Sequence record: JX560968
DNA length: 64,000 bases
Direction: 5' to 3' (one strand)
From: Escherichia phage EC6
This document shows, piece by piece, positions 5,385 through 59,061 of the stretch; position 1 is the stretch's first letter; every line of letters begins with the position of its first letter. The position numbers and the translations under genes are program-made. The notes under the pieces are model-generated. The model was not told the DNA's origin, did no database searches, and saw nothing but the letters and a program-made list of their open reading frames with translations.

Positions 5385-5711
5385 TTATTCATGTAGTATG
5401 TTCTTTTTTTCAACCTTATCAAGAAGCTTATGAAGGTCTGCAAAGAGACTTACCACCTCTTTATGGTCAATATCTTTTTCAAGATTTGCCCTGTATTTCA
5501 ATAGTGCAGCATCAACCTCTTTATCATTGAATTTGAAGTATTGGACTTCTTCATTCACACATACACTGATATTGTTGGTGTTTATCGTCAATTTGCACAG
5601 TTTGACTGGAGAATTGATGTTGGTCTGAAAAAGTGCTACACAGCCTTCTACATTCCCGAAATGTTTGACTAATGTAACTTCTGGTTGGATATGTTCATGC
5701 TCTTCTGACAT
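5385..5711 (-). CDS. hypothetical protein (108 aa)
   Basis: ORF in minus block; the overlapping ORF 5129-5443 may be a separate short gene with an internal start. Confidence 0.45.
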   Translation of the reverse strand: MSEEHEHIQPEVTLVKHFGNVEGCVALFQTNINSPVKLCKLTINTNNISVCVNEEVQYFKFNDKEVDAALLKYRANLEKDIDHKEVVSLFADLHKLLDKVEKKNILHE

Positions 5712-5989
5712 TATAGTTTCCTCATTAAATACTTTTTAAGTTGTGTGTTAGGTTTCTCAAAAACTTCTATAGAAGATATCTTGACAGACTCACCACGCAT
5801 ACCTGTATGTTTAAATATGTAATACTCTAACATCCCTATGTACTTTGCTGGTAAGTCATGTTTGACATAGACTGTTACAGAATCTTCAAATTCAACAACC
5901 TTTGTACCATCCTTGTAGTTAAACTCTCTAGGGTGGTTGTAGTTATCAATGTCATACATTAAAAACGAGTCTTTTCCGTTGCATGTCAA
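5711..5989 (-). CDS. hypothetical protein (92 aa)
   Basis: ORF in minus block. Confidence 0.45.
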   Translation of the reverse strand: MTCNGKDSFLMYDIDNYNHPREFNYKDGTKVVEFEDSVTVYVKHDLPAKYIGMLEYYIFKHTGMRGESVKISSIEVFEKPNTQLKKYLMRKL

Positions 5990-15916: not shown

Positions 15917-15995
15917 GCTCCATTACTCCAATTGGCAGAGAGGCCAGACTTAAAATCTGTGTTATGTATCGGTTCGAATCCGATATGGAGTACCA
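15917..15995 (+). tRNA. tRNA with anticodon TAA (Leu-type anticodon) on a class-I-length scaffold
   Basis: Acceptor GCTCCAT/ATGGAGT, anticodon loop CTTAAAA, 6-nt variable loop, perfect T-arm ATCGG-TTCGAAT-CCGAT, CCA encoded. Confidence 0.45.
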
Positions 15996-16000
15996 AATTT

Positions 16001-16076
16001 AGCGGTATAGCATAACTGGCAATGCAGCAGTCTCTGAAGCTGTCTTATTAAGGTTCAAATCCTTATGCCGCTGCCA
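16001..16076 (+). tRNA. tRNA-Gln (anticodon CTG)
   Basis: Acceptor AGCGGTA/TGCCGCT, D-stem GCAT/ATGC, anticodon loop CTCTGAA, T-arm TAAGG-TTCAAAT-CCTTA, CCA encoded. Confidence 0.55.
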
Positions 16077-16107
16077 CTTCTAAGGATTCTTACGAGAGTC
16101 CTTAAAT

Positions 16108-16183
16108 GTGGCCTTATCATAAATGGTAATGACCCATGCTGTGAACATGGTCTATACGGGTTCAAATCCCGTAGGTCACCCCA
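16108..16183 (+). tRNA. tRNA-His (anticodon GTG)
   Basis: Acceptor GTGGCCT/AGGTCAC, anticodon stem CCATG/CATGG with loop CTGTGAA, T-arm ACGGG-TTCAAAT-CCCGT, CCA encoded. Confidence 0.6.
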
Positions 16184-16188
16184 ATTTA

Positions 16189-16265
16189 TAGTCCAAGTAG
16201 CTTATATGGTTAAAGCGCGTGTCTGAAAAACATGAGAAGAGGGTTCAAATCCCACTGGACTACCA
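16189..16265 (+). tRNA. tRNA-Phe (anticodon GAA); ends approximate
   Basis: D-stem GCTT/AAGC, anticodon stem CGTGT/ACATG with loop CTGAAAA, T-loop TTCAAAT; the acceptor register is ambiguous by 1-2 nt. Confidence 0.5.
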
Positions 16266-16281
16266 ATTTCAAAGGTGCTTA

Positions 16282-17016
16282 ATGAAAGAGATGACAGAAC
16301 AAGGTAAGGAGATTTTTAATCTCTTAAAAACTGGTAAAGGGTTTTCTAACCCCCTTATTACTGGTGCAGCAGTTCTCGGTGGAACCGTAGCTGCCTCTAC
16401 ATCACTTGTAAGCTCTATTAGCTCTGTATCAGACCCTACAGTAAAGGATAAGCTTGTTGCTGCTGGACTTACAACAGTTCTGCTTAACAGCTTTACCACG
16501 AGTCTGACAAGCACTACATCAACTACCAAAACACTGACAGATTACGGTCAAAAGTCCATTGATGAGTTTTCATCACGTATGCAGGTAGCAAAAGGTTATT
16601 CTAATGTTATGGGTGCAGCAGGTGAACAAGTTGGCTGTACACCGTTTAGTGGTATTATGGGTGTTGCTACAGAATATGGTCAAAAAGCTATTGACACAAT
16701 TAACAGTGCACTAGACGGTGTTAATGATGTATTAAGTGACTTACAAGACGCTATTGACAAAGGTCTTGATACTATTTCTGATTTAGCTAACCAAGCTGTT
16801 AGTAAGATTAATGAAGGTATCTCGAAGATTACAGCTTATGCAGATGAAGTTGTGCAGATGATTGAAGAAGAAGCTGCCCTTATTGCAGAGTACCTTAAAA
16901 CGAATATCAATGGGTTCTTAGCAGGTATCTTACCAGACTGGTTTGATGATGCTTGTAAAACTGGTGTAATTGACACTATTGCAACACCAGAAATGAAGAG
17001 CGCATTACAGAAATAA
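16282..17016 (+). CDS. hypothetical protein (244 aa)
   Basis: ORF in the tRNA cluster; the ATG at 16282 with an AAAGG RBS is preferred over the upstream in-frame start, which overlaps tRNA-Phe. Ser/Thr-rich N-terminal region. Confidence 0.45.
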   Translation: MKEMTEQGKEIFNLLKTGKGFSNPLITGAAVLGGTVAASTSLVSSISSVSDPTVKDKLVAAGLTTVLLNSFTTSLTSTTSTTKTLTDYGQKSIDEFSSRMQVAKGYSNVMGAAGEQVGCTPFSGIMGVATEYGQKAIDTINSALDGVNDVLSDLQDAIDKGLDTISDLANQAVSKINEGISKITAYADEVVQMIEEEAALIAEYLKTNINGFLAGILPDWFDDACKTGVIDTIATPEMKSALQK

Positions 17017-17037
17017 TGGAAGATTAACCCTAAAAGG

Positions 17038-17130
17038 TAAGGGAGCAGTTTGCTAAACTGCCAGTAGCTGAGAAATCGGTGTACCAGTTCAAGTCTGGTA
17101 TCTTCCTCCAATTTGAATCCGTGACAGAAA
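17038..17130 (+). tRNA. tRNA-Ser (anticodon GCT), long variable arm
   Basis: Perfect acceptor GGAAGAT/ATCTTCC, 3-bp D-stem CCC/GGG, anticodon stem GCAGT/ACTGC with loop TTGCTAA, ~21-nt variable arm, T-arm ACCAG-TTCAAGT-CTGGT, CCA encoded. Confidence 0.65.
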
Positions 17131-17134
17131 TGGC

Positions 17135-17210
17135 TATGTACCTGTCTGCAAAACAGGTTTATAAGGGTTCGAGTCCCTTCGGATTCTCCAAGTTATTTTA
17201 CTCTCTCTCA
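17135..17210 (+). tRNA. tRNA-Cys (anticodon GCA)
   Basis: Acceptor GAATCCG/CGGATTC, anticodon stem CCTGT/ACAGG with loop CTGCAAA, T-arm AAGGG-TTCGAGT-CCCTT, CCA encoded. Confidence 0.6.
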
Positions 17211-17376: not shown

Positions 17377-17412
17377 AAGGAGAAACATGGTTAATTATTT
17401 GGAGAAAACATA

Positions 17413-17613
17413 ATGAGCGAGACCGTTTATAAAGAACTTTATGAAGCTAATAAGAAGCTAGAATTTATGCAGAACACTATCATGGCAATTGCAGACAGAT
17501 TATCTGTAGCAACAGGTATTGATATTAAAGAAGCATCTATGGATGCACTTCTTGATGCTGTTGATGCAAAGTTCGAAGTTAAGAGAGAAGAGACTGCTAC
17601 AGACTCTGAATAA
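17413..17613 (+). CDS. hypothetical protein (66 aa), first gene of morphogenesis block
   Basis: Small ORF with RBS immediately upstream of terminase; a small-terminase role is possible but unsupported. Confidence 0.4.
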   Translation: MSETVYKELYEANKKLEFMQNTIMAIADRLSVATGIDIKEASMDALLDAVDAKFEVKREETATDSE

Positions 17614-17634
17614 TTCTATTTGCGGAGGCGCTTA

Positions 17635-19235
17635 ATGGACTTAAATGCTGTTAAGCAGAAGCGAGTGGAAGATGTTAGGAAAGTCCTAGCTGGAGAGTTG
17701 GGGCTTTCTGATGAAGTAAAAGAAATTATCAAATCATTCGGTAAAGACCCCTCTAAATTCCTTCCAACTCAAATTCTGACTTTATTAAGATACACCCCAG
17801 ACCAAGTTAGACTTATCTTCAAATTGATGACTGATAAGAACTATGTAGCCCCTCAGCCGGGTTCTCAAGAGGTCTTTTTAAATACTAATGCTGACTTGGT
17901 TCTCTATGGTGGTGCTGCGGGTGCTGGTAAGACTGCTGCATTGTTGATGGACTCTTTAAGATTTATTGAAGACCCTAACTATAATGCTGTGTATTTCCGT
18001 CGAAACACAACACAGTTACAAGGTGGTTTATGGCCTGCTGCAAAGAAACTATTTGGTAAGTTTGGTGGGGTTCCTCACGAGCAGAAGATGACTATCACAT
18101 TCCCTTCTGGGGCAACTATCAAGTTTACCTACCTAGAACTTGAAAAGCACGCTGAAGGTCATCAGGGTATTGAATACTCAGCTATTTACTTTGACGAAGG
18201 TACTCACTTCTCTGCTTCACAGATTTCATACCTACAGACTCGTCTGCGTTCTGGGGCTGAAGGTGACTCATACATGAAGATTTCCATGAACCCAGACAGA
18301 GACCACTTTATTTACGATTGGGTAGAACCATTCTTAGATGAAGAAGGTTACCCAGACCCTGAAAAGTGTGGTCGTATTCGTTGGTATGTAATGAATGATG
18401 GTGTTATGGTTTCTGATTGGGAGAGAGACAAGATTCTTGAAATGTTTCCTCTTGAGATTCCTCAAACATATACATTCATCTCTGGTACGATTGATGATAA
18501 CCCAATCCTTGACTTCTTGGAACCTAAATATCGTGGTAAGTTGGAAAACAACACCCCTGTAAACGTTGCAAGACTTCGTTTCGGTAACTGGAAGGCTCGT
18601 GCAGAAGGTTCAAACTATTGGCAAAGACAATGGTGTGAGATTGTTGATTCACTCCCAGAAGATGTGTTTGATGTCAGAGCATGGGACTTAGCAGCAACTT
18701 TACCATCTGAAATTAACCCTAACCCAGACTGGACAGCGGGTGTTAAGATGGGTAAATCTAAAAAGACGGTTGCTATTATATCATTGATGTAGTAAGATTT
18801 AGAGATAGACCCTCTGGAGTTGAAACACAAATTAATTTGACTGCTGAAAGTGACGGTAAGCGAACTGGTATTTTTATCCCTCAAGACCCAGGCGCTGCTG
18901 GTAAATCCTATGCAACATCCCTCATCAGGAAACTTGCCGAGAAAGGTTATCGCGCAAGAGCTAAACCAACAAATAAAGATAAAGTTACCCGCTTTGCGGG
19001 ATTTTCTGCTGCTTCTGAAGCTGGACTTGTAAAAGTCTTGAGAGGCAGTTGGAACGAAGCTTACTTTCAAGAACTTGAAGGCTTTTGTGGTGATGGTAAA
19101 ACTAAAGATGACCAAGTGGATGCTACCAGTGATGCTTTCAACAGTCTTAACGAAGTTAAATTATTCAAGCCACCATCAATGGGTGCTCACACAGACTTAG
19201 TGAGAGGAAACCCATATGAGGGGCTTAGACGTTGA
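17635..19235 (+). CDS. terminase large subunit; reading frame interrupted at A5 run 18760-18764
   Basis: Walker A YGGAAGAGKT in the N-terminal ATPase domain; nuclease-domain motifs (WDLA..DWTAG, then YYIIDVVRFR and DDQVDA) continue in the -1 frame from ~18762 to 19235; the ATG at 17635 has a GGAGG RBS. Confidence 0.7.
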
Positions 19236-19251
19236 TAGCTAGGTGAGAAGA

Positions 19252-20717
19252 ATGGCAGAAATTACAGAAACACAAGAAAGCTTACCACCATTTAGAATGG
19301 GTGAAGTAGGTTCTTTGGGTCTGAAGGTTAAGAATGGTAGAATCTATGAAGAACCTCGTCAGGCACTAAGGTTCCCTGAAAGTATTAAAACTTTCCAATT
19401 AATGATGCGTGACCCTGCTGTAGCAGCATCTGTAAATATTATTAAGATGTTTGTTAGAAAAGTCAACTGGAGATTCGTACCTCCAAAGGGAAAAGAGCAA
19501 GACCCTAAAATGCTTGAAAGAGCAGACTTCTTTAATTCTTTAATGGATGACATGGAGCATGATTGGGCAGATTTTATTAACTCTGTAATGTCATTCTGCA
19601 CTTATGGGTTCTGTGTTAACGAAAAGGTTTATAAGAAACGTCAGGGTAAAAAGGAAAGTACCAGTCAAAATTTGATGATGGTCTAATTGGGTGGGCTAAA
19701 TTACCAATCAGAAACCAATCGACACTTGATAAGTGGTATTTTGACGAAGACTTTAGAAAAGTTACTGGTGTTAGGCAGAATCTGAGAAATGTTTCACATA
19801 TTGCTGGAGCAATTAATCTTGGAGAAAGACCACTAACAAGAAAACTCCCACGAGCTAAATTCATGTTGTTTAAGTATGATGACGAATATGGAAACCCAGA
19901 AGGTCGTTCACCATTACTTAATGCCTATGTACCGTGGAAGTATAAAGTACAGATTGAAGAGTATGAAGCTGTTGGTGTTTCAAGAGACTTGGTAGGTATG
20001 CCAAAGATTGGTTTACCACCAGATTATCTGGATGAAAATGCAGAACCTGAAAAGAAAGCTTTCGTACAATACTGCAAAACTGTTGTTAATGATATGATTG
20101 CAAATGACAGAGCAGGTTTAATCTGGCCTAGATATATCGACCCAGATACTAAAGAGGATATTTTCGAGTTCTCATTAGTCTCTAGACAGGGTGCTAAAGC
20201 ATACGACACAGGTTCTATTATTGACAGATATTCCAAGCAGATTATGATGGCATTTATGTCAGATGTTCTTGCTATGGGTCAGTCAAAATATGGTTCATTC
20301 TCTCTTGCAGATTCTAAGACAAGCTTACTAGCAATGTCAGTAGATATTCTGCTGAAGCAAATTAAGAACGTAATTAACCGTGATTTAGTTGCACAGACTT
20401 ATGCTCTTAATATGTGGGACGATGAAGAACATGTACAAATCACATATGATGATATCGAAACTCCAGACCTTGAAGCAATTGGTTCTTATATTCAGAAAAC
20501 TGTTGCAGTAGGTGCTTTGGAAGTTGACAAAGAGCTATCTAACAAGCTTAGAGAGCATATTGGTCTTCCTCCTGCTGATGAGTCTCAGCCAGTATCTGAA
20601 AAGCTTTCTCCAAACAGTCAAAGCCGTTCAGGAGATGGTTATAAGACCGCTGGAGAAGGTACTGCAAAGACACCTTCAGCAAAAGACCCAAGCACAGCAA
20701 ATAAGGCAAATAAATAA
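19252..20717 (+). CDS. portal protein; reading frame interrupted at A5 run 19648-19652
   Basis: Position directly after terminase; the N-terminal 135 codons (frame 1) and the C-terminal ~355 codons (frame 0) are separated only by a -1 shift at GGTAAAAAGG; the combined ~490 aa is typical of portals. Confidence 0.55.
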
Positions 20718-21560: not shown

Positions 21561-22907
21561 ATGAGTTCGAATATCTTCAGACTTGCTGATAGATTGTTCA
21601 ACCAACCTTTACTAGCCACTGAATCATTAGCTCACTCAGCAGCAACCTATGTGAATAACAGATTGCTGGGTGATGTCCAAGCAGCAGTAAACTTTGATAA
21701 ACCCAAAGGTGAAGCAAGAAGTCTTTAAAAAGTAAAAGATGACATTGCTATTATTCCTATTATGGGTGGTTTAACTCATCGTATGACATTCATTGATGCA
21801 ATGTGTACAGGTGGTTTAAGCTCTTATGAAGGTTTACGCAGAGGCTTTGACGAAGCTTTAGCAGATGAGTCAATTAAGACTATTGTTCTGCATATTGATT
21901 CTGGTGGTGGTGAAGCTTCAGGTTGCTTTGAATTAGCACGTCACATTATGGCTTCAAGAGGCCAAAAGAAAATTATCGCTTATGTAGATGAGTTCGCTTG
22001 TTCCGCTGCATATGCTCTTGCATCTTCTGCTGAAGAAATTATTGCATCACCAGATGCAGATGTTGGTTCTATTGGTGTAATTATGGTTCATCAGGAATTA
22101 ACTAAGGCATTTGAAAAGAATGGCGTAACAATTAACGTCATCAAAGCTGGTGAGTTTAAAGGTATGGGTTCACCATTCCAAGCACTTTCAGAAGAAAGCA
22201 AAGAAAGACTTCAAAAGAGAATTAATGATACCTACGCAACCTTCACAGGTTTTGTAGCTGAATCTCGTAATCTCTCTGAAGAAGCTGTAAAGAATACTGA
22301 GGCGAATGTTTATTCTGCTCAGGAAGCTCTTGAACTTGGTTTAATTAACTCAATCATGTCTCAAGATGATTTCTTAAATTACTTACAAGGTTCTGAAGAG
22401 GCTCCTGTAAGTTTAAACGTTAACAATTCAGGTGAAGAAATGACTGAACAAGAAAAGCAAGAACTAGAAGCTTTGCGTCTTCAGGTTGCTCAAATGAAAG
22501 CTAAAGAACAGGAAGCTGCTTTGTCAGATTTGACTAATAAGATTTCTGCTTCTGCTGAAGCTTTTGGATTTGATGCAAAAGAAGCTGCAACGACTATTTT
22601 AGGTGCTGGTCTTGATAACCCTCTGAGTGTTCTGTTTATGAATGCTATGGAAGGTGCTAACCAGAAACTTAATGAAACTATCGCATCCCATGCTTCTGCA
22701 ATGGAAGAAAAAGAATCAGAAATTACCAAGCTGAAAGAAACTGCTGGTGCTGTTCTTGAACATTCCAATGCTATGGAAGAAGTGGGTAATGACGGCGAAG
22801 CTGATTTGGTTGAAGAAGAAAAAGAACCAGCTAAGAATGCTTCCGAAGACACCGCTGAACAACGCAAACTGGCTCTCCAGAACGCTCTAAAATCTCTTAT
22901 CAAATAA
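21561..22907 (+). CDS. prohead protease (S49 / lambda gpC-like) with C-terminal scaffold-like region; in-frame TAA at 21726-21728
   Basis: N-terminal FNQPLLATESLA resembles lambda C FNEPLMLEPAYA; the S49-like core (IVLHIDSGGGEASG...) follows; the conserved ARS-x-KV...IAIIP block spans the in-frame TAA; C-terminal E/K/A-rich helical tail. Confidence 0.6.
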
Positions 22908-28185: not shown

Positions 28186-28217
28186 GGGGGAGACTTTAAA
28201 AGGTCTTCCCCTTTTTG
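28186..28217 (+). terminator. rho-independent terminator
   Basis: Hairpin GGGGGAGAC...GTCTTCCCC followed by T5 after the tube gene. Confidence 0.5.
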
Positions 28218-38138: not shown

Positions 38139-39764
38139 ATGGCAGATTACAAATTGAGTCAATTAAACTCAATCGACACAATTCGTTCAGAAGACCTATT
38201 GCACATCAGAGTTAAGAAAAGACCTGAAATGTTGGGTGACGAAGACCGTAGAATGACCTATCAAGACTTCTTAGCTTCTTTCAAACTAGAAAGGTTTGTT
38301 CAGATTGCTGGGAGCACTATGACGGGGGATTTAGGTATTGTCAAGTTACTTTACGGTGGTAAGGTAGTATTTGACCCTACAGATTCTTCTGAGATTACTC
38401 TTGGGGATATTTTAAAGACTTTTAAAATCAACTCAAATGGGCTTAAACTCACTATTGCAGATGCCACAAGGTCAGCAACTGTTTATCATACTTTGAATAA
38501 ACCAAGTCCTAATGAACTTGGCATGAGAACTAATGAAGAGAATGATGCAAGATATTCAAGGCTTGCTGTTACAAATAACTTCAGTATTAGGCAAGCAATT
38601 GTAACTGATGGTGAGCAGTTAACTCTTAAGAAGGCAACCAATACAGGTGCTTCATATATTCAAGGTAGAGATGCTAATAACCAGCAAACTTGGTATGTTG
38701 GACAGGGAAATGCAAACAGTACTAATGTTTATTTGTACAATCATGCTACTGGTGCAATGTTAACCCTTGATGCAACAGCAGCATTTAACAAGTCACTTAG
38801 AATCGTTGGTCAAGTTCAACCTTCGGATTTCTCTAACTTAGATGCTAGATACTTCACTCAGACAGTCGCTAATCAGAGATTTGCACAGTTAGCTGGCAAT
38901 AATACTTTTACAGGTGCTAATACATTTAATAACTATATCAGTGTGAACTCTAATGCTGCTGCTATCGTGCTAAAAAATAAGTCTGCTAATGAGTCTTTGT
39001 ACATCCTAGCAAAAGATGTTGAAAACAATAATCTGTGGTTTATTGGTAAAGGTAGTGCAAATGACAATATCACATTTTATGATTACAAGGGCAATACTTC
39101 TATTGTATTAAACTCGTCTGGTGCTGCATTCAGCAAGACTGTAAAAATCACTGGTCAAGTCCAACCTTCAGATTGGACTAACATTGACTCTAGATATATT
39201 CCGGCAGCTACTTTGAGCAATCTTGCTAAAATTAATGTAGCTAACACATTTACCTCCCAGCAAATTATCCAAGCAAATGGTGAAGCTATTAGGCTAAAAA
39301 ACTCTTCTGAGAACTCACCATTGTATATCAGAGCACAGGACAACACTGGTGCTTATAGGTGGTATGTAGGTAATGGCTCGGGGGGTGATGATGTCACCAT
39401 CCGCAATCACAAGACAGATTGTGAGGTTATCCTATCTAGTGTCGTTGCTATTAATAAAACATTAAGCATCACTGGTCAAGTTAAACCCTCAGATTTCTCT
39501 AACTTAGATGCTAGATATTACACGCAATCTACCGCAAACTCTAGGTATATGCTTGCTTACTCTTCTGGCAGTGGTACAGAGGTGGGTGAGAGTGATGGTA
39601 TTGTTTGGAATGCTAAAACTGGTCTGTATAATGTGTATGATAAATCTGGTGGCGCAACACAGCTAGTCTACCATATGTATCAGGGTGCAAGTTCTACACC
39701 ATCTGCACAGTTTAAGTTTATCTACAGGAATGGTGGTAGTTTTTTACAGGACAGCACGAGATAG
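38139..39764 (+). CDS. tail fibre protein with three internal repeats
   Basis: 541 aa; three copies of ITGQV(Q/K)PSD(F/W)(S/T)N(L/I)D(A/S)RY plus repeated LYI(R/L)A(Q/K)D motifs. Confidence 0.6.
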   Translation: MADYKLSQLNSIDTIRSEDLLHIRVKKRPEMLGDEDRRMTYQDFLASFKLERFVQIAGSTMTGDLGIVKLLYGGKVVFDPTDSSEITLGDILKTFKINSNGLKLTIADATRSATVYHTLNKPSPNELGMRTNEENDARYSRLAVTNNFSIRQAIVTDGEQLTLKKATNTGASYIQGRDANNQQTWYVGQGNANSTNVYLYNHATGAMLTLDATAAFNKSLRIVGQVQPSDFSNLDARYFTQTVANQRFAQLAGNNTFTGANTFNNYISVNSNAAAIVLKNKSANESLYILAKDVENNNLWFIGKGSANDNITFYDYKGNTSIVLNSSGAAFSKTVKITGQVQPSDWTNIDSRYIPAATLSNLAKINVANTFTSQQIIQANGEAIRLKNSSENSPLYIRAQDNTGAYRWYVGNGSGGDDVTIRNHKTDCEVILSSVVAINKTLSITGQVKPSDFSNLDARYYTQSTANSRYMLAYSSGSGTEVGESDGIVWNAKTGLYNVYDKSGGATQLVYHMYQGASSTPSAQFKFIYRNGGSFLQDSTR

Positions 39765-40509
39765 GTATGGTTTTGAGCAGGCATGGGCTAAAATCTATAC
39801 AGACCAAGATAAACCAACCCCTTCAGAGATTGGTGCATACACTAAAGCTGAAACTGACCAGAAGATTGCAGAAGCAATCAGTGACTCTACAGACTTGAAT
39901 AAAATCTATCCAGTAGGTATTGTAACGTGGTTTAACAGTAATGTTAACCCTAATACAGCACTTCCTGGTCTAACTTGGACGTACCTGAATAATGGTGTTG
40001 GTAGAACTATCAGAATTGCAGCAGCAAATGGTTCAGATGTTGCTACAACTGGTGGTTCAGACTCTGTAACGTTATCTGTTGGTAACTTACCTTCACATAC
40101 GCATAGCTTCTCTGCTACCACTTCATCATTTGATTATGGTACTAAGACTTCTAGTACAACTGGTAACCATAACCATAACAGAGGTACTATGGAAATCTCA
40201 GGTGCATTTGGTTGGTTCAGAAGTGACAATAGTTCATTCTACACTGCGAGTGGAGCATTCGTGATGGGGAGCAGTCAGGCTTCGCATGGCTTCACAGGCT
40301 CTAACTTCACTTATGGTGCTCCTGTTGATTTCCACGCGTCAAGAACTTGGACAGGTGCAACCAACACAACAGGTAACCATAGCCATACTGTAGGTATTGG
40401 TGCTCACAGCCACACAGTTAGTGGTAACACAGGTGGTACTGGTTCTGGTTCAGCATTTAGTGTTACTAACCAGTTCTACAAGTTAATGGCTTGGGTAAGA
40501 ACTGCTTAA
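39685..40509 (+). CDS. tail fibre tip-domain protein (His-x-His repeats); may be fused to the upstream fibre via the T6 run at 39740-39745
   Basis: C-terminal ~230 aa is paralogous to the tip of the 36917 product (LPSHTHSF...GNHSHTVGIGAHSHTV...AFSVTNQ); the frame is open back into the upstream gene with no good RBS or ATG of its own. Confidence 0.45.
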   Translation: MQVLHHLHSLSLSTGMVVVFYRTARDRYGFEQAWAKIYTDQDKPTPSEIGAYTKAETDQKIAEAISDSTDLNKIYPVGIVTWFNSNVNPNTALPGLTWTYLNNGVGRTIRIAAANGSDVATTGGSDSVTLSVGNLPSHTHSFSATTSSFDYGTKTSSTTGNHNHNRGTMEISGAFGWFRSDNSSFYTASGAFVMGSSQASHGFTGSNFTYGAPVDFHASRTWTGATNTTGNHSHTVGIGAHSHTVSGNTGGTGSGSAFSVTNQFYKLMAWVRTA

Positions 40510-47674: not shown

Positions 47675-48231
47675 TTAGTGTACTTCAAGCCAGCTTTTAC
47701 CAACCTTACCAGTACCTGTAACAAGCGTTTCTTTCTTAAGACCTAAGTTTTTAGAAGCTTGCCCATAATACCAGTCAGTAACTGCTTTCACTTCTGCCGT
47801 CATACTTTCTGGACATTCCCAACTCGTCTCGTCGTGATAGGAGCACAATAAACGAGCACCTATAGCTGGTTTGCGACCGTTCAACTTCATCAAACCTTCG
47901 TCAATCATACGACGGCAAGCAAGGTTAATTGCTTCATTCTGAACCTGCGCCTCACTACCCATTAGGGTATAGTTTAATAGTTTATGCGGTGATTTACACC
48001 ATAACCACGCCCCAGCGACCTGAATGTACCCACCCTTAGCGATTGCAGCACTCTTGCCGAAAACCTCTTCTAATGCCTTCTTAGTGGCCTTAAAATCGGC
48101 TTCTAAGTTATCAAGTAGTTTCTTAATCTTTGGTAGACGCATATAGTAGGTCTGCTTAGTTAATGCACCTTCCTCTGTAGAAGCTGCCTTAATGGTCTTG
48201 GCAAACTTCTCATCACCTGCACCGAACAATA
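47675..48231 (-). CDS. DNA polymerase (family A), 3-prime exon / C-terminal part
   Basis: Begins LFGAGDEKFAK, the second half of Pol A motif B (compare T7 YGFLYGAGDEK), and contains motif C LLCSYHDE; no independent ATG (the frame enters via TTG). Confidence 0.65.
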
Positions 48232-49036
48232 CATCTGGTCAATACACTCGCAAGGTGTACCAGTTCTCTTATGAACTTCTCCGCATTTCTACGGAGTGTC
48301 GGACTATATCACGCAGTAGTAATACTACCGTTGCACTTGGGAATGGTCATTAGCTTACCACCCTACTCTACTCAGTTCATACATTAAGTATGCTTTTCGA
48401 TAGTCTCTGAACGTTTCTCTGTTAGGAACTCTAAAATACTATTATTTACTAAGGTATGCAATTGCTCTCTTCATGTTCTCTATACTATCTGAGAACAGCC
48501 CAAGACCTCTGTTACAGTTGTGACACAGCATACCTCTTACCTGTCCTGTTTTGTGGTCATGGTCAACAACCAGCTTGGCTTTATGTCTTGAACCATCCAT
48601 GATAAAACCTTCACCACCGCAGATTTGACACTTGTGACCACACTTACTTAGTAACTCTTCGACCTCTTCTCTTTCTAAGCCGTAAGTCCTTAAGTAATAG
48701 TTCTTTACCCTTCCCTTTTCTCCACAAGCAGAACTGCAATACGTCTGTCTTGCTGTTCTAGGTGTAAACTGGTTATTGCAGCTTGGACATATTTTCTCTA
48801 TGACACGACTTGCTGCTCTTCTGTCTACTTCAAGAACGCAGTTTCTACAACGTTTTTGATTGTACTGATATGGCTTAAACTCTTCGCCACATCTGGAACA
48901 AACTCTTTCTTTATAACCTGCCATTGTCTCTCTCCCATTTCTACTATAGGAGTCCTAACAGAGACTTCGCTGCTGATTACCATATCTTTACAGACTTAGG
49001 CTTCCAGCAATTCACAACGTTTTACATGCGCCACTG
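48232..49036 (-). mobile_element. intervening sequence in DNA polymerase gene (group I intron-like) carrying an endonuclease ORF; boundaries approximate
   Basis: Splits Pol A motif B between RKKAKNGIYA and LFGAGDEK; an in-frame stop follows 17 codons into the insert; contains a free-standing Endo VII/HNH ORF; the proposed junction obeys the exon-U / intron-terminal-G rule. Confidence 0.5.
48442..48924 (-). CDS. HNH-superfamily endonuclease (Endonuclease VII-like), intron-encoded homing endonuclease candidate
   Basis: Signature VVDHDHKTGQVRGMLCHNCNRGLG plus two N-terminal Cys4 zinc-ribbon-like motifs; lies wholly inside the polymerase insertion on the same strand. Confidence 0.65.
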   Translation of the reverse strand: MAGYKERVCSRCGEEFKPYQYNQKRCRNCVLEVDRRAASRVIEKICPSCNNQFTPRTARQTYCSSACGEKGRVKNYYLRTYGLEREEVEELLSKCGHKCQICGGEGFIMDGSRHKAKLVVDHDHKTGQVRGMLCHNCNRGLGLFSDSIENMKRAIAYLSK

Positions 49037-51179
49037 ACGCATAGATACCATTCTTAGCCTTCTTACGGCCTTTAGTTATCTCGTGAAGAAGTTCTTCATC
49101 CTGAGTTTCTCTACAACGAATAATGTCATCCTCTTTGTTCAATGCAAAGTAGATGCTGTTAAGCGTATGTGCATCAGTACCTGTATACACCTCATATAAG
49201 TCATTATCCATATCGTAACGACAATACTTGTCAGTCTCTGGATTGAGGTACTTGTCAAGATGTTTGCAGTAGTACCGTCCATCATCCTGTTTAGTGAACT
49301 CGACAAACTCTTTACCTTCAGTTACTGCTTTAGTGAACTCTTTATCACCCATAAAGTTACACAGTAAAACAAGCTGTGCAGAGTTCTGGTCAACTGAAAC
49401 GATGTTAGTCCCTTCCTCACAAATCCACACCTCCCTCATAGGTGCTCCATAGACAGCAGCACCAGATGGTACGTTTACAATACCATACTGCGTCATACGT
49501 CCAGTTGAAGTACCAAACACCATTGCACCAGCACTAAGGCGACCATCTGGACGAATCTGGTTCAACCAACCTTTTTCATCATCCTTTGAGTTCTCAATAG
49601 TTCTGCGTCGGTGCATCAAAGTATAGTACTTAGCAATCTTCTGTCCAAGTTCACCTTCAATCGTATCATAAGATGATTCAGTAAGTTTTGGTGAAGTACG
49701 GATTAAGCAAGGCTCAAGCAAATCTGTGTACTTCTTCACAGACCAGTTATGCTCAATGTACTGTACACCTTCATGTTCAACATAACTCAAACCACACCGC
49801 TCAACCATTTCCTGCCACTTAGGATGCTTTGTAATCATCTTTTTATTGTCTTTGAAACGACAAACTTTGACAGGGTGACCATCTGAGTCTTTCTTGTAGT
49901 TCCAGTCATCTGGAATCCAACCAACTGATTTCAAGTAGTCTTTAACAACTGCTACCTGAGTCATACGAGAAACTTCAAACTCAATTGGTGTATATGGTGC
50001 ATCAATCAAACCTGTGTAGCGACTTGACTCAAGTTCAAAGTGGTTAACAACGTGGCTGTTATAGTACTTCACAGTTTTGACTGTTTTTACTGGCTTCCAG
50101 TCTTTGCATTTCTTACCAATCTTTGCATTCAACTCATTGCAAATTGCACGAGCATCCTTCATTGCTACAAAGCCTTCCTTGTACTCTTCACCAGTTACAG
50201 AGTTGGTTGGTGTATAGCAATTTCTCTTTTCAATGTTAAAAATCTTTGTAGTTGGCTTACCAAATGGCTTGATTTCGTATGTCTGCATCTCACCGTTACG
50301 TACCTGCTGACGATACTTTGTCTTAGGATACTTGGTAATCCTCTTCAGTCCATCTGCATGACCAAATGTTTCAACATACTCATTCCAAGCTTTTGCAAAC
50401 TCTTCTCCAGTGACTTTACCTTTGGTCTTAATAGTTGGAGGAAGATGTGGTTCAACCTCTGAAGCAAGCTCATTAGTCAACTTGTCAAGTTCCTTTACAT
50501 GGAACTCCATAAGCTCTTTATCAGCTTTCCAACCATTGATAGCTTGTTGACTCATCCAGAAAGATGTTTCTTTAGCTCGCATGTAAGTTTCATAAGTGTC
50601 TATACCACACTTCTTAAGCTTGAGATACTCGTTATCAAGTGCCCGTTTAGTTTTGGCGTTAATACGGATATCTTCTACAACACGAGTGAAGATTTCTGCA
50701 TTCCACACACCCCAATGTTCAATCTCTGGTTTACGAACACCAACACGAGCACCCCATGCAGCCAAACCATGAGCACCTTTATAACCCTTTGGAGTTGGTC
50801 TATCCATCCACTGAACACGAGACTGGATAAGAGAATCCTGAAAGAAATTACTCCACGGTTTACACTTTGGATTATCAAAGTTCCATAAATCAGGTGCAAT
50901 GTGATTGAAAACCCACCAGTCATAACCGAGACCGTTGTGGATGCAAAGACGTTTTGCCTTTAACGCAAACTCAATACCTTCACGTAAGCCACCCTTGATG
51001 TACTTGGTATACTTGTGACCGAGGATAGGCTCATCTGTAAAGACCCATACAGGTGGCTCTTCATCATCAGATTTATAGTCTGCGAAAGCCATTACGTGCA
51101 CTTTAGTGAACTCAAGGAGTAAACCATCAGTTTCTGTATCACCAACTAAATGTAAGTTTTTAAAATCTACGTTTTCCAT
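49037..51179 (-). CDS. DNA polymerase (family A), 5-prime exon with 3-prime-5-prime exonuclease domain
   Basis: Exo I motif VGDTETDG; palm motif A-like SVDQNSAQL; ends in the first half of motif B (GRKKAKNGIY); the internal ATG at 51179 has a GAGGGAG RBS and is preferred over the annotated 51209 start. Confidence 0.7.
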
Positions 51180-51236
51180 TTTTACTCCCTCTAAAATCAT
51201 TAACCTCATACATTACTGCAAAAAATTATAAAAAGC

Positions 51237-51860: not shown

Positions 51861-52124
51861 ATGAATATCGATGTAGAAAAGATGCTTGAAGAGAAAGGTG
51901 TTGATGAAGCATTCTTAATCAATGCCGTAGAAAGCATGGCTATGATTCTTCGTGGTAATAACTACACAGAACAGTTTATGCCTGCAAGCTATAACTTGCC
52001 TGAAGACAAGTCTGATAACGGTGCTTTTGCAGAACAGGTTAATATGATGTTGACAGACACTACACTTGCTCTGGCATCTATTGCGGTTGGTGTTGATGCA
52101 CTTGCTGAGTTCAGTTTTTTATGA
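51861..52124 (+). CDS. hypothetical protein (87 aa)
   Basis: ORF; may continue into the next ORF across the T6 run at 52115-52120. Confidence 0.4.
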   Translation: MNIDVEKMLEEKGVDEAFLINAVESMAMILRGNNYTEQFMPASYNLPEDKSDNGAFAEQVNMMLTDTTLALASIAVGVDALAEFSFL

Positions 52125-52671
52125 AATGCAAAAGAATGACTATATCAGGATGTCAGACGAAGATAAGGAACTGTTGCTGACTAAGGACACTGATTTCATT
52201 ATTGATACACTTATCTCATCAACAAGTGCTGTTATGGCTGTTCTTGAGAAGCGTATGGAAGAGAAACTTTCACGATATGAAAAACTTGATTGGGGCGTAG
52301 AAGAATTAAACCCACGAATCAAAGAGATTATCCAGCAAACTAAAGAGTCTTTGGAAGAAGCTGTTGAAAATGACTCTGTAGCTGACATTGAACCACTTCA
52401 GGTGAAAGTTGCACTGATGATTCCAGCTATCTCTACGATGATGAATATCGTTGCACTAATCCAACTGTCACAGATGATGGGTGTGAGTATTGAGTTCATT
52501 GAGGAAATGACTGGTGGCGTTAGTATGCAAGCAATCAATGATGTTTTGGTGAACATTGGTGCTTCAATCATTGAAGAGAAACTACGCATTAACTTCGGTG
52601 ATGATTTTGTGAAGCAAATCTCAGCTATGGCTGAAAAGAGTCTGCTGAGCAACTGCACTAAGTCTTTATAA
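52066..52671 (+). CDS. hypothetical protein (201 aa; start uncertain)
   Basis: Frame overlaps the upstream ORF by ~60 nt; the first in-frame ATG downstream lacks an obvious RBS. Confidence 0.4.
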   Translation: MLWHLLRLVLMHLLSSVFYEMQKNDYIRMSDEDKELLLTKDTDFIIDTLISSTSAVMAVLEKRMEEKLSRYEKLDWGVEELNPRIKEIIQQTKESLEEAVENDSVADIEPLQVKVALMIPAISTMMNIVALIQLSQMMGVSIEFIEEMTGGVSMQAINDVLVNIGASIIEEKLRINFGDDFVKQISAMAEKSLLSNCTKSL

Positions 52672-55653: not shown

Positions 55654-55722
55654 TAGTTATAAAAGAGAGGGGTTCATACCCTTCTTTGAAGAAAAAGTTT
55701 AAATGAATTTCAGGAAGAGTGT

Positions 55723-58563: not shown

Positions 58564-59061
58564 GAAAAATTAAAGGTTTTGGTAATTGCCCTGAGTATGG
58601 ACATTGGATTTCACTTTGTGGGGAAATTGACCCAGCAAAGCATTTTGGTTTTGTCTACCTAGTGTACTGCAAAAAGACTGGGCAGTACTATTTGGGTAAG
58701 AAACAGTTTAACAGTGTGACCAAAAGAAAAGTTGCTGGGAAGACTCGGAAGAAGGTAGTCACTAAGGAGAGTGATTGGATGACTTATGAGACTTCTTCTG
58801 AGTATATTAAAAAACGATATTGAGAGCTTTGGAAAAGAATTTTTTGACTTTTACATTATTCAAACCTACTACACAAAAGGTGGCCTAGTCTATGGTGAAG
58901 CAAACCTTCAACATAAATTCGATGTAATGACAAAAAGGATTGACTCTAAGCTCAGACTCTTCTACAATGCCAACATTGCAGCAATTAAGTTTATCACTAA
59001 AGAAACTTATGAAGATGCTGAAAAAAGAATCCATAAGGTAATGAAAGCAAATTGTGCTTGA
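58560..59061 (+). CDS. GIY-YIG endonuclease-like gene, frame broken at A6 run 58809-58814 (possible pseudogene)
   Basis: GIY-YIG-like GFVYLVYCKKTGQYYLGKK at the N-terminus; the downstream frame (+1) carries the rest of the domain. Confidence 0.4.

What the first reader, a model, noticed from the sequence alone, without database searches (positions are those of the whole stretch)
18750..18800. Terminase large subunit needs a -1 frame change at TCTAAAAAGACGG
The ATPase domain (Walker A GGAAGAGKT) reads in one frame to a stop at 18790-18792. The conserved nuclease continuation YYIIDVVRFR ... DDQVDA is in the -1 frame, which opens immediately after a TAA overlapping the A5 run at 18760-18764. One extra A would give an uninterrupted ~530-aa terminase. 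Either a homopolymer under-call in the record or -1 frameshifting at AAA-AAG.
Basis: partly seen in the sequence, partly recalled or inferred. Interest (0 to 1): 0.5.

Follow-up and report, generated by a model that had tools for sequence, protein, structure and literature searches.

The report
Terminase frame break: missing base artefact
The broken terminase gene in this Felix O1-like phage is almost certainly one of many single-base errors at A/T runs in the sequence record, not a programmed ribosomal frameshift, so it is ordinary.

Summary
The terminase large-subunit (TerL) frame stops at TAG 18790-18792. The nuclease continuation lies in the -1 frame, which opens after TAA 18759-18761. One extra A in the A5 run (18760-18764) restores a 533-aa TerL.

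The window is a Felixounavirus, about 98% identical to more than 200 GenBank phages at this locus. Every relative checked has A6 here and one intact 1602-nt terL: 60/60 sampled GenBank records, 20 IMG/VR contigs, 10 metagenome contigs and a Logan contig. A5 was found nowhere else.

The window carries many other private lesions at A/T homopolymers:
- frame breaks in eight conserved genes, counting TerL, portal and a tail fibre (0-1 such breaks in control comparisons of three relatives with each other);
- an in-frame TAA in the prohead protease, from T4A4 becoming T3A5.

These lesions include deletions, insertions and a stray C after A-runs, so no single recoding mechanism could rescue them.

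The 157 codons after the TerL break differ from relatives only synonymously. The break falls 28 residues inside the nuclease domain. There is no full slippery heptamer, no downstream structure beyond chance, and the phage encodes a tRNA-Lys(CUU).

Verdict: a sequencing or assembly artefact (about 0.88). One loose end: the portal A5 also occurs in one independent assembly.

The parts
17635..18792 (+). terL, upstream frame: ATPase domain plus the first ~28 residues of the nuclease domain, ending at TAG 18790-18792 only because of the missing base
   Evidence: ORF list and translation. Pfam Terminase_6N, residues 91-335, E 4e-43. 99.2-99.5% identical to residues 1-382 of relatives' TerL.
18760..18764 (+). 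A5 run where every relative has A6; the site of the missing base
   Evidence: Alignments with Ro111lw, Meda, VpaE1_ev035, JN01, SP22 and the ERR975226 contig. A6 in 37/37 occurrences over all fetched loci. A5 pattern: 0 hits in IMG/VR against 20 for A6. 10/10 metagenome contigs carry the extra base. 60/60 sampled GenBank records span one extra base.
18762..19235 (+). terL, downstream (-1) frame: the rest of the RNaseH-like nuclease domain (KDGCYYIIDVV...DDQVDA), stop at 19233-19235
   Evidence: Pfam Terminase_6C E 2e-27, starting at profile position 23. It becomes contiguous over profile positions 2-154 when one A is added. The 7-9 nucleotide differences from each of 6 relatives are all synonymous in this frame.
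19648..19652 (+). Second A6-to-A5 lesion of the same type (GGT AAA AAG GAA). It splits the portal gene into 19243-19686 and 19863-20717.
   Evidence: A6 in 26 of 28 fetched occurrences. None of 179 GenBank records matches the window's A5 version of this stretch at 99% identity or more. All 15 IMG/VR matches have the one-base-longer form. The exception is one Logan contig, ERR975226_3, fetched twice, which also has A5.
21726..21728 (+). In-frame TAA in the prohead protease gene, from CTTTTAAAAG in relatives to CTTTAAAAAG in the window (T4A4 to T3A5)
   Evidence: All six relatives, including ERR975226, have TTA (Leu). The protein is otherwise 99.6% identical to that of VpaE1_ev035.
5404..5410 (-). 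T7 where relatives have T6; breaks a conserved 193-aa gene on the minus strand
5961..5966 (-). Extra C directly after an A5 run (TTAAAAA[C]GAG); breaks a conserved 114-aa gene
39739..39745 (+). Extra G directly before a T6 run (an extra C after A6 on the other strand); splits the long tail-fibre gene into 38139-39764 and 39685-40509
   Evidence: The region is divergent from relatives, so the exact lesion is less certain here.
52114..52120 (+). Extra G before a T6 run; breaks a 266-270-aa gene annotated 'minor tail protein'. A further A5-to-A4 lesion lies at 52634-52637.
55692..55696 (+). A5 where relatives have A6; breaks a conserved 97-aa gene
58809..58815 (+). Extra C directly after an A6 run (TTAAAAAA[C]GAT); breaks a conserved 165-aa gene
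14255..14330 (+). Phage-encoded tRNA-Lys(CUU), cognate for AAG; bears on how slippery A_AAG would be in infected cells
   Evidence: ARAGORN. The role of the single weakly pairing tRNA-Lys in E. coli A_AAG slippage is described in PMC5009743.

Best explanation
The window comes from a Felix O1-like myovirus (Felixounavirus). Its true terL gene is an ordinary uninterrupted 533-codon gene, with a T4-type ATPase domain followed by an RNaseH-like nuclease domain. The sequence there should read TCT AAA AAA GAC GGT. The record is missing one A of that A6 run, which is a homopolymer-length miscall made during sequencing or assembly. The missing base throws the nuclease domain into the -1 frame. The same record-level fault produced a series of other lesions at A/T runs of 4-7 bases: under-calls, one over-call, a T4A4 to T3A5 boundary swap, and a stray C called directly after A-runs. 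These lesions break the portal, prohead protease, a tail fibre and several other conserved genes. Shown here: the single-base difference, its absence from every relative examined, the record-wide lesion pattern, and purifying selection on the downstream frame. Inferred: that the cause is technical. A stray C after A-runs, together with run-length errors, is what flow-based chemistry with a T-A-C-G flow order tends to give. That attribution rests on my own knowledge and was not tested.
For: 1. The window is 95-99% identical to 212 GenBank Felixounavirus records over 17400-19300. The 30 listed records all span 1902 bases for the 1901-base query. Relatives annotate one 1602-nt terL.
2. The only indel within terL against the five GenBank relatives and the ERR975226 contig compared is A6 versus A5 at 18760-18764.
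3. The A5 version is found nowhere else: 0 in IMG/VR against 20 for A6; 60/60 sampled GenBank records have the extra base; 10/10 metagenome contigs have it; 37/37 occurrences over all fetched loci are A6. Neither the 385-aa nor the 390-aa truncated product is on record among the 153 billion gene positions of the assembly index.
4. Record-wide pattern: 21 one-base indels are private to the window against all three full genomes. 13 of them lie in or next to A/T runs of 5 or more, which occupy 2.5% of positions (p about 4e-14).
5. 10-11 of the relatives' ORFs are frame-broken in the window, against 1-2 when the relatives are compared with each other. After removing an antisense ORF and the cases that also appear in the controls, 8 conserved genes are broken.
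6. The prohead protease carries an in-frame TAA made by T4A4 becoming T3A5.
7. The lesions are of mixed sign (deletions needing -1, insertions needing +1) and several are an extra C after an A-run. No single recoding mechanism could repair them.
8. An independent contig 96-97.6% identical to the window (Logan ERR975226_3) has the relatives' state at TerL and at 7 other window-private one-base deletions.
9. The 157 codons downstream of the break show 7-9 differences from each of 6 relatives, all synonymous. That frame is therefore translated as part of a working protein.
Against: No raw reads are available, so the A5 cannot be shown directly to be a miscall. The source record could not be identified, so the sequencing platform is unknown. 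Real replication slippage also targets homopolymers. The portal A5 lesion, which is of the same type and in the same codon phase (X AAA AAG), also appears in an independent Logan assembly of run ERR975226. At least that one could therefore be a real variant or a recurrent context-specific miscall. A -1 slip at A_AAG would give exactly the wild-type protein, so a real A5 would not necessarily be lethal.
Confidence: 0.88

Rival explanations
1. The A5 is a real mutation in this phage. Enough full-length TerL is made by unprogrammed, low-level -1 ribosomal slippage of tRNA-Lys at U_AAA_AAG ('corrective' or leaky frameshifting). The protein produced would be identical to the wild type.
For: A_AAG is the minimal Z_ZZN -1 shift motif and is notably shifty in E. 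coli (PMC5009743). The slip product would read ...GKSKKDGCYY..., exactly as in relatives. The downstream frame is under purifying selection. The portal break has the same X_AAA_AAG phase and is seen in an independent assembly. Terminase acts catalytically, so small amounts might suffice (inference).
Against: The P-site codon AAA would have to re-pair with UAA, so this is not a full X_XXY_YYZ heptamer. No downstream structure exceeds chance: z -0.86, and 37 of 200 shuffles fold at least as well. The phage encodes tRNA-Lys(CUU), and a tightly pairing cognate tRNA is expected to reduce slippage from AAG (PMC5009743). A5 occurs in no other Felixounavirus sequence examined. The same genome would also have to survive +1-type breaks, a protease nonsense codon and a portal break (12 portal copies are needed per virion, from general knowledge), which slippage at A_AAG cannot fix.
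Confidence: 0.06
2. The A5 is a real inactivating mutation. The sequence would then represent a defective genome: a non-viable variant in a mixed population, or a decaying copy.
For: Several essential genes are disrupted at once, as expected for a dead genome.
Against: All substitutions in the 157 codons downstream of the break are synonymous, and broken genes remain 96-99% identical to relatives at the protein level, so there is no sign of decay. The lesions are restricted to homopolymer contexts with a technical-looking signature, the extra C after A-runs. Felixounaviruses are virulent phages and the site is absent from 185,579 species genomes, so a decaying prophage copy is unlikely.
Confidence: 0.04
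3. An evolved programmed -1 frameshift that sets a ratio between a truncated ATPase-only product and full-length TerL, in the manner of dnaX tau/gamma.
For: Only the formal presence of A_AAG at the frame junction and a zero-frame stop 9 codons downstream.
Against: A programmed site should be conserved, and every relative has an in-frame A6 instead. There is no stimulatory structure. The flanking sequence is the same in relatives that need no shift. The break splits the nuclease domain rather than falling at a domain boundary.
Confidence: 0.01
4. A naturally split terminase, with the ATPase and nuclease made as two separate polypeptides that associate.
For: Two ORFs that each hit one terminase domain.
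Against: The -1 frame has no start codon until TTG 18837. A product starting there would lack KDGCYYIIDVVRFRDRPSGVETQIN. The first 22 profile positions of Terminase_6C, which hold the WDLA segment, lie in the upstream ORF. The RNaseH-like fold would therefore be cut in two.
Confidence: 0.01

Closest known systems
Intact terL of Felixounavirus phages (e.g. vB_EcoM-Ro111lw AXH65086.1, Meda AXY86338.1, VpaE1_ev035 VVC17390.1, wV8, Bas63/JohannRWettstein)
   Same: Same gene, same position (after the tRNA array and a 66-aa ORF, before portal), about 98% nucleotide identity. With one A added, the protein differs from each of six relatives at no more than one residue.
   Different: The window has A5 instead of A6 at codons 376-377, so the reading frame is broken.
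E. coli dnaX -1 programmed frameshift (A_AAA_AAG, upstream SD-like element, downstream stem-loop)
   Same: The frame junction contains AAA_AAG read by tRNA-Lys, and the direction of the shift needed is -1 (PMC5009743).
   Different: The base before the hexamer is U, not A, so the P-site tRNA cannot fully re-pair. No downstream structure exceeds chance. The configuration is not conserved in any relative. dnaX shifting makes a shorter second product, whereas here shifting would be needed to make the only functional product.
'Corrective' or 'savior-indel' frameshifting (e.g. herpesvirus thymidine kinase G-run indels; leaky frameshift mutants at A_AAG)
   Same: A one-base indel in a homopolymer of an essential gene, which low-level slippage could compensate (PMC5009743).
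   Different: In those cases the indel is verified in the DNA and selected. Here it is unverified and sits among many other homopolymer lesions of both signs.
[quoted passage not shown]
   Same: A terminase gene whose expression has been proposed to need recoding (PMC5009743).
   Different: A different mechanism (bypassing at UUA) and an unrelated phage. No such signal is present here.
Homopolymer-length errors of flow-based or long-read sequencing in phage genome records
   Same: Single-base run-length errors at A/T runs, boundary swaps such as T4A4 to T3A5, spurious frameshifts spread over many genes, and intact genes in all relatives.
   Different: Nothing measurable. The platform of this record is unknown, so the attribution is by signature only.

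Membership tests
Terminase large subunit, T4-type (Pfam Terminase_6N + Terminase_6C) | N-terminal ATPase domain with a Walker A motif | tested here: met
   Terminase_6N at residues 91-335, 147.9 bits against a cut-off of 22. GGAAGAGKT is present.
Terminase large subunit, T4-type (Pfam Terminase_6N + Terminase_6C) | C-terminal RNaseH-like nuclease domain on the same polypeptide | tested here: inconclusive
   As the record stands the domain is split across two frames: the second piece starts at profile position 23, 96.6 bits. With one A restored it is contiguous over 349-504, 114.9 bits.
Programmed -1 ribosomal frameshift site (dnaX / IS / phage G-T type) | Slippery heptamer X_XXY_YYZ in the zero frame, allowing both P- and A-site tRNAs to re-pair | tested here: not met
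   The sequence is U_AAA_AAG (18759-18765). Only the A-site tetranucleotide A_AAG re-pairs fully; P-site AAA would face UAA.
Programmed -1 ribosomal frameshift site (dnaX / IS / phage G-T type) | Stimulatory RNA structure a few nucleotides downstream | tested here: not met
   Minimum free energy of 18766-18845 is -13.5 kcal/mol, z -0.86; 37 of 200 shuffles fold at least as well.
Programmed -1 ribosomal frameshift site (dnaX / IS / phage G-T type) | The two-frame arrangement is conserved in related genomes | tested here: not met
   All relatives have an in-frame A6: 60/60 sampled GenBank records, 20 IMG/VR contigs, 10 metagenome contigs, and 37/37 occurrences in fetched loci. A5 gives 0 hits.
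Programmed -1 ribosomal frameshift site (dnaX / IS / phage G-T type) | Measured frameshift product | not testable with these tools
   Needs a reporter assay or mass spectrometry.
Sequencing or assembly homopolymer error | A single-base length change inside a homopolymer, relative to all close relatives | tested here: met
   A5 versus A6.
Sequencing or assembly homopolymer error | The same class of lesion recurs across the record, far above a between-relatives baseline, and hits essential genes | tested here: met
   13 of 21 private one-base indels lie at A/T runs of 5 or more (p about 4e-14). 8 conserved genes are broken against 0-1 in controls after the same exclusions. Protease TAA from T4A4 to T3A5.
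Sequencing or assembly homopolymer error | The disrupted downstream frame shows no decay | tested here: met
   0 nonsynonymous against 7-9 synonymous codon changes over 157 codons, for each of 6 relatives.
Sequencing or assembly homopolymer error | Raw reads or re-sequencing show the longer run | not testable with these tools
   No reads are available, and the source record is not in the searchable assembly index.

The most novel reading that the evidence does not exclude
The A5 runs in terL and portal are real in this phage lineage. Both essential proteins would then be made by unprogrammed -1 slippage of tRNA-Lys at U_AAA_AAG, that is, corrective frameshifting tolerated in two packaging genes at once. 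The portal variant would be independently attested by the ERR975226 assembly.
Probability: 0.05. Interest if true: 0.5.

Novelty: not a real feature. Interest (0 to 1): 0.06.

Why it matters
As read here, its value is practical. The record should not be used as evidence for recoding in terminase genes. Its gene calls for terL, portal, prohead protease, tail fibre and several small genes need correction, and automated screens for programmed frameshifts should filter it out. If the A5 were real it would be a modest curiosity: two essential virion and packaging genes depending on leaky A_AAG slippage, in a phage that carries its own AAG-cognate tRNA-Lys. Nothing found here favours that reading over a miscall.

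Tried and rejected
- I tried to identify the source record by exact-protein look-ups: the truncated TerL with ATG and TTG starts, and the two tail-fibre ORFs. None is on record, so the platform and reads remain unknown.
- A look-up of the 284-aa portal C-terminal piece found six contigs. Three ENA metagenome scaffolds turned out to have A6 and are split only by runs of N. The Logan contig ERR975226_3 has A5. The other two are short Logan contigs that start after the A-run and say nothing about it.
- I tested whether ERR975226 is a sister of the window around the portal site, which would mean shared descent of A5. It is no closer than other relatives: 2/299 mismatches, against 2-3/299 for SP22 and Ro111lw.
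- ERR975226 matches no GenBank phage above about 97.5% and is not mentioned in the paper library.
- A sequence search of the Protein Data Bank (PDB) with the repaired TerL gave no hit at E of 0.01 or below. Catalytic residues were therefore not mapped onto a solved structure.
- A search for the Sharma et al. paper on tetra- and heptanucleotide motifs failed. I used the review PMC5009743 instead.
- Considered and rejected: transcriptional slippage (a run of 5 is shorter than the runs known to support it, from my own knowledge); a split two-polypeptide terminase; and an evolved programmed frameshift. See the rival explanations.

Full report
**1. What is in the sequence**

The stated coordinates are all correct. 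An ORF from 17620 (TTG) or 17635 (ATG, the start that relatives annotate) carries the Walker A motif GGAAGAGKT and ends at TAG 18790-18792. The frame one base back opens directly after TAA 18759-18761. It reads KDGCYYIIDVVRFR...DDQVDA through to a stop at 19233-19235. The A5 run occupies 18760-18764 inside TCTAAAAAGACGG.

Pfam assigns the upstream product to Terminase_6N (E 4e-43). It assigns the downstream frame to Terminase_6C (E 2e-27), but only from profile position 23 of 155. Adding one A gives a 533-aa protein in which Terminase_6C is contiguous (residues 349-504, profile positions 2-154) and scores higher, 114.9 against 96.6 bits. The break therefore lies about 28 residues inside the nuclease domain, not in a linker.

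**2. What the window is**

The 17400-19300 stretch matches 268 phage records, 212 of them at 95-99% identity. All are Felix O1-like myoviruses (Felixounavirus) of Escherichia, Salmonella and Shigella. Over 25 kb the nearest records are about 94-95% identical, so this is a distinct member of a very well-sampled genus. Relatives annotate a single 1602-nt terL followed by a 1467-nt portal gene.

**3. The TerL site in relatives**

The only indel within terL, in alignments with the relatives compared, is at the A-run: relatives have TCTAAAAAAGACGG (A6). Counts by collection:

| Collection | A6 (or extra base present) | A5 |
|---|---|---|
| IMG/VR, exact 23/24-mer | 20 | 0 |
| GenBank phages, 60 records sampled evenly from 211 matches | 60 | 0 |
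| GenBank phages, repaired 77-mer | 76 records identical | no record reaches 99% identity to the window's own 76-mer |
| Metagenome contigs | 10 | 0 |
| All fetched loci | 37 | 0 |

Neither version of the truncated product is on record among the 153 billion gene positions of the assembly index.

**4. The record as a whole**

I compared the window with three complete relatives (VpaE1_ev035, JN01, SP22). Twenty-one 1-nt indels are private to the window, meaning all three relatives agree against it. Thirteen of these lie in or directly next to A/T runs of 5 or more, which cover 2.5% of positions (binomial p about 4e-14).

The lesions fall into these types:
- A6 to A5 at 9932, 11891, 18760, 19648 and 55692.
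- T6 to T5 at 28212 and 41182.
- A5 to A4 at 52634.
- T6 to T7 at 5404.
- A stray C immediately after an A5-7 run at 496, 57071 and 58815. The same lesion appears as a G before a T6 run at 52114. Two more such sites, 5966 and 39739, are supported by only two of the three relatives.
- An in-frame TAA at 21726-21728 in the prohead protease, created by CTTTTAAAAG becoming CTTTAAAAAG (T4A4 to T3A5). All six relatives have Leu there.

I then searched the relatives' ORFs (90 aa or longer) against the window with tblastn. This gives 10-11 ORFs whose matches abut in different frames. The same test between the relatives gives 1-2. After removing an antisense ORF and the cases that also appear in the controls, eight conserved genes are broken only in the window:
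- terL
- portal
- the long tail fibre
- a 270-aa gene annotated 'minor tail protein'
- conserved ORFs of 193, 165, 114 and 97 aa

A virion cannot be built or filled without portal, protease and terminase (general knowledge of tailed-phage assembly). The lesions also need shifts of both signs, so no single recoding mechanism could rescue them. The parsimonious reading is that the record has systematic homopolymer-associated errors. The stray C after long A-runs and the T4A4 to T3A5 swap are what flow-based chemistry with a T-A-C-G flow order tends to produce. That attribution comes from my own knowledge and is not tested here.

**5. Independent check from a near relative**

A Logan contig (ERR975226_3, 24.3 kb, 96-97.6% identical to the window) has A6 and an intact 533-aa TerL. 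It also has the relatives' state at seven other window-private 1-nt deletions: 11890, 12423, 12710, 12931, 12935, 12954 and 14867.

**6. Is the downstream frame alive?**

In the repaired gene, the 157 codons after the junction differ from each of six relatives at 7-9 nucleotides, and all changes are synonymous. The 376 upstream codons show 22-41 synonymous and 0-1 nonsynonymous codon changes. The nuclease frame is therefore under purifying selection as part of TerL. That excludes a decayed pseudogene. It fits an artefact, or alternatively a very recent mutation.

**7. Could ribosomes shift here?**

Formally, yes. With AAA in the P site and AAG in the A site, a -1 slip puts tRNA-Lys on AAA (18762-18764). 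The next codon is then GAC, which gives ...SKKDGCYY..., exactly the relatives' sequence. A_AAG is the minimal Z_ZZN -1 motif and is notably shifty in E. coli, because its sole tRNA-Lys pairs weakly with AAG (PMC5009743).

Four points argue against a real shift site:
- The P-site tRNA would face UAA, so this is not the full heptamer.
- The 80 nt downstream fold no better than shuffles (z -0.86). The same holds downstream of the portal site (z -0.89).
- The flanking sequence is the same in relatives that need no shift.
- The phage encodes both tRNA-Lys(UUU) and tRNA-Lys(CUU). A cognate AAG reader is expected to pair tightly and dissociate poorly (PMC5009743).

A programmed site should also be conserved, and this one is unique to the window.

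**8. Comparison with known systems**

- Mechanistically, the nearest known system is dnaX-type A_AAA_AAG shifting, or 'corrective' slippage at verified indels.
- The one published proposal of terminase recoding I found concerns Streptomyces phage Hau3. It involves bypassing, not -1 shifting (PMC5009743).
- Three defining features of a programmed -1 site were tested and not met: the heptamer, the stimulator and conservation.
- All three testable features of a homopolymer miscall were met.

**9. Loose end**

The portal lesion (GGT AAA AAG GAA at 19648-19652) has the same type and codon phase as the TerL lesion. It is shared with the ERR975226 contig. No GenBank record among 179 matches the window's A5 version at 99% identity or more, and all 15 IMG/VR matches have the extra base. 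The two sequences are not specially close around that site. The shared A5 is therefore either a recurrent context-specific miscall or a recurrent real mutation. I could not determine the platform of that run. This keeps a small probability, about 5%, on the reading that A5 runs are real and leaky in this lineage.

**10. Verdict**

The feature is best classed as not real, an artefact of the record. Interest is low.

Noticed in passing
window 19648-19652 (portal gene 19243-20717); L029/L035 = Logan ERR975226_3: The portal gene is split by an A6-to-A5 lesion in the same X_AAA_AAG codon phase as terL. Unlike the terL lesion, it is shared with an independent 24-kb Logan contig that is otherwise clean in this region. 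No GenBank (179 records) or IMG/VR (15 contigs) relative has it.
   Followed up: partly
window 21726-21728 (prohead protease gene 21561-22907): An in-frame TAA replaces a Leu codon because CTTTTAAAAG reads CTTTAAAAAG (T4A4 to T3A5). All six relatives have TTA. This looks like a homopolymer-boundary miscall.
   Followed up: yes
window 5404-5410, 5966, 39739, 52114, 52634, 55692-55696, 58815; also 496 and 57071: More window-private lesions at A/T runs break six further conserved genes. Several are an extra C called immediately after an A5-7 run (or a G before a T6 run on the other strand), which is a strikingly uniform signature.
   Followed up: yes
window 12931-12955: Three single-base deletions (GGG to GG, AAA to AA, AAA to AA) lie within 25 nt in the intergenic part of the tRNA region. 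This suggests a locally low-quality stretch.
   Followed up: no
window 47675-51209, minus strand; insert about 48232-49038: The DNA polymerase gene (909 aa in relatives) is interrupted by an insert of about 800 nt that is absent from VpaE1_ev035 and SP22. The insert carries a 160-aa ORF (48442-48924) with an HNH/endonuclease VII-like motif. There is also a sub-threshold Rfam group I intron match at 48896-49009 (22.9 bits against a gathering score of 50, E 0.003). This is probably a mobile intron with a homing endonuclease.
   Followed up: partly
window 11934-17190: An array of 25 tRNA genes lies just upstream of terL. It includes both tRNA-Lys(UUU) at 13024-13099 and tRNA-Lys(CUU) at 14255-14330.
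   Followed up: partly
window 17014: A one-base A deletion directly after the stop codon of the DUF7217 gene (CAG AAA TAA|A in relatives) and 3 nt before tRNA-Ser. It is shared with the ERR975226 contig, so it may be a real lineage variant rather than an error.
   Followed up: partly
GenBank GU169904.1 (hits H74, H149): A record named 'Staphylococcus phage SA1' (147 kb) contains a Felixounavirus terL-portal region 96.5-98.7% identical to the window. This looks like a chimeric or contaminated record.
   Followed up: no
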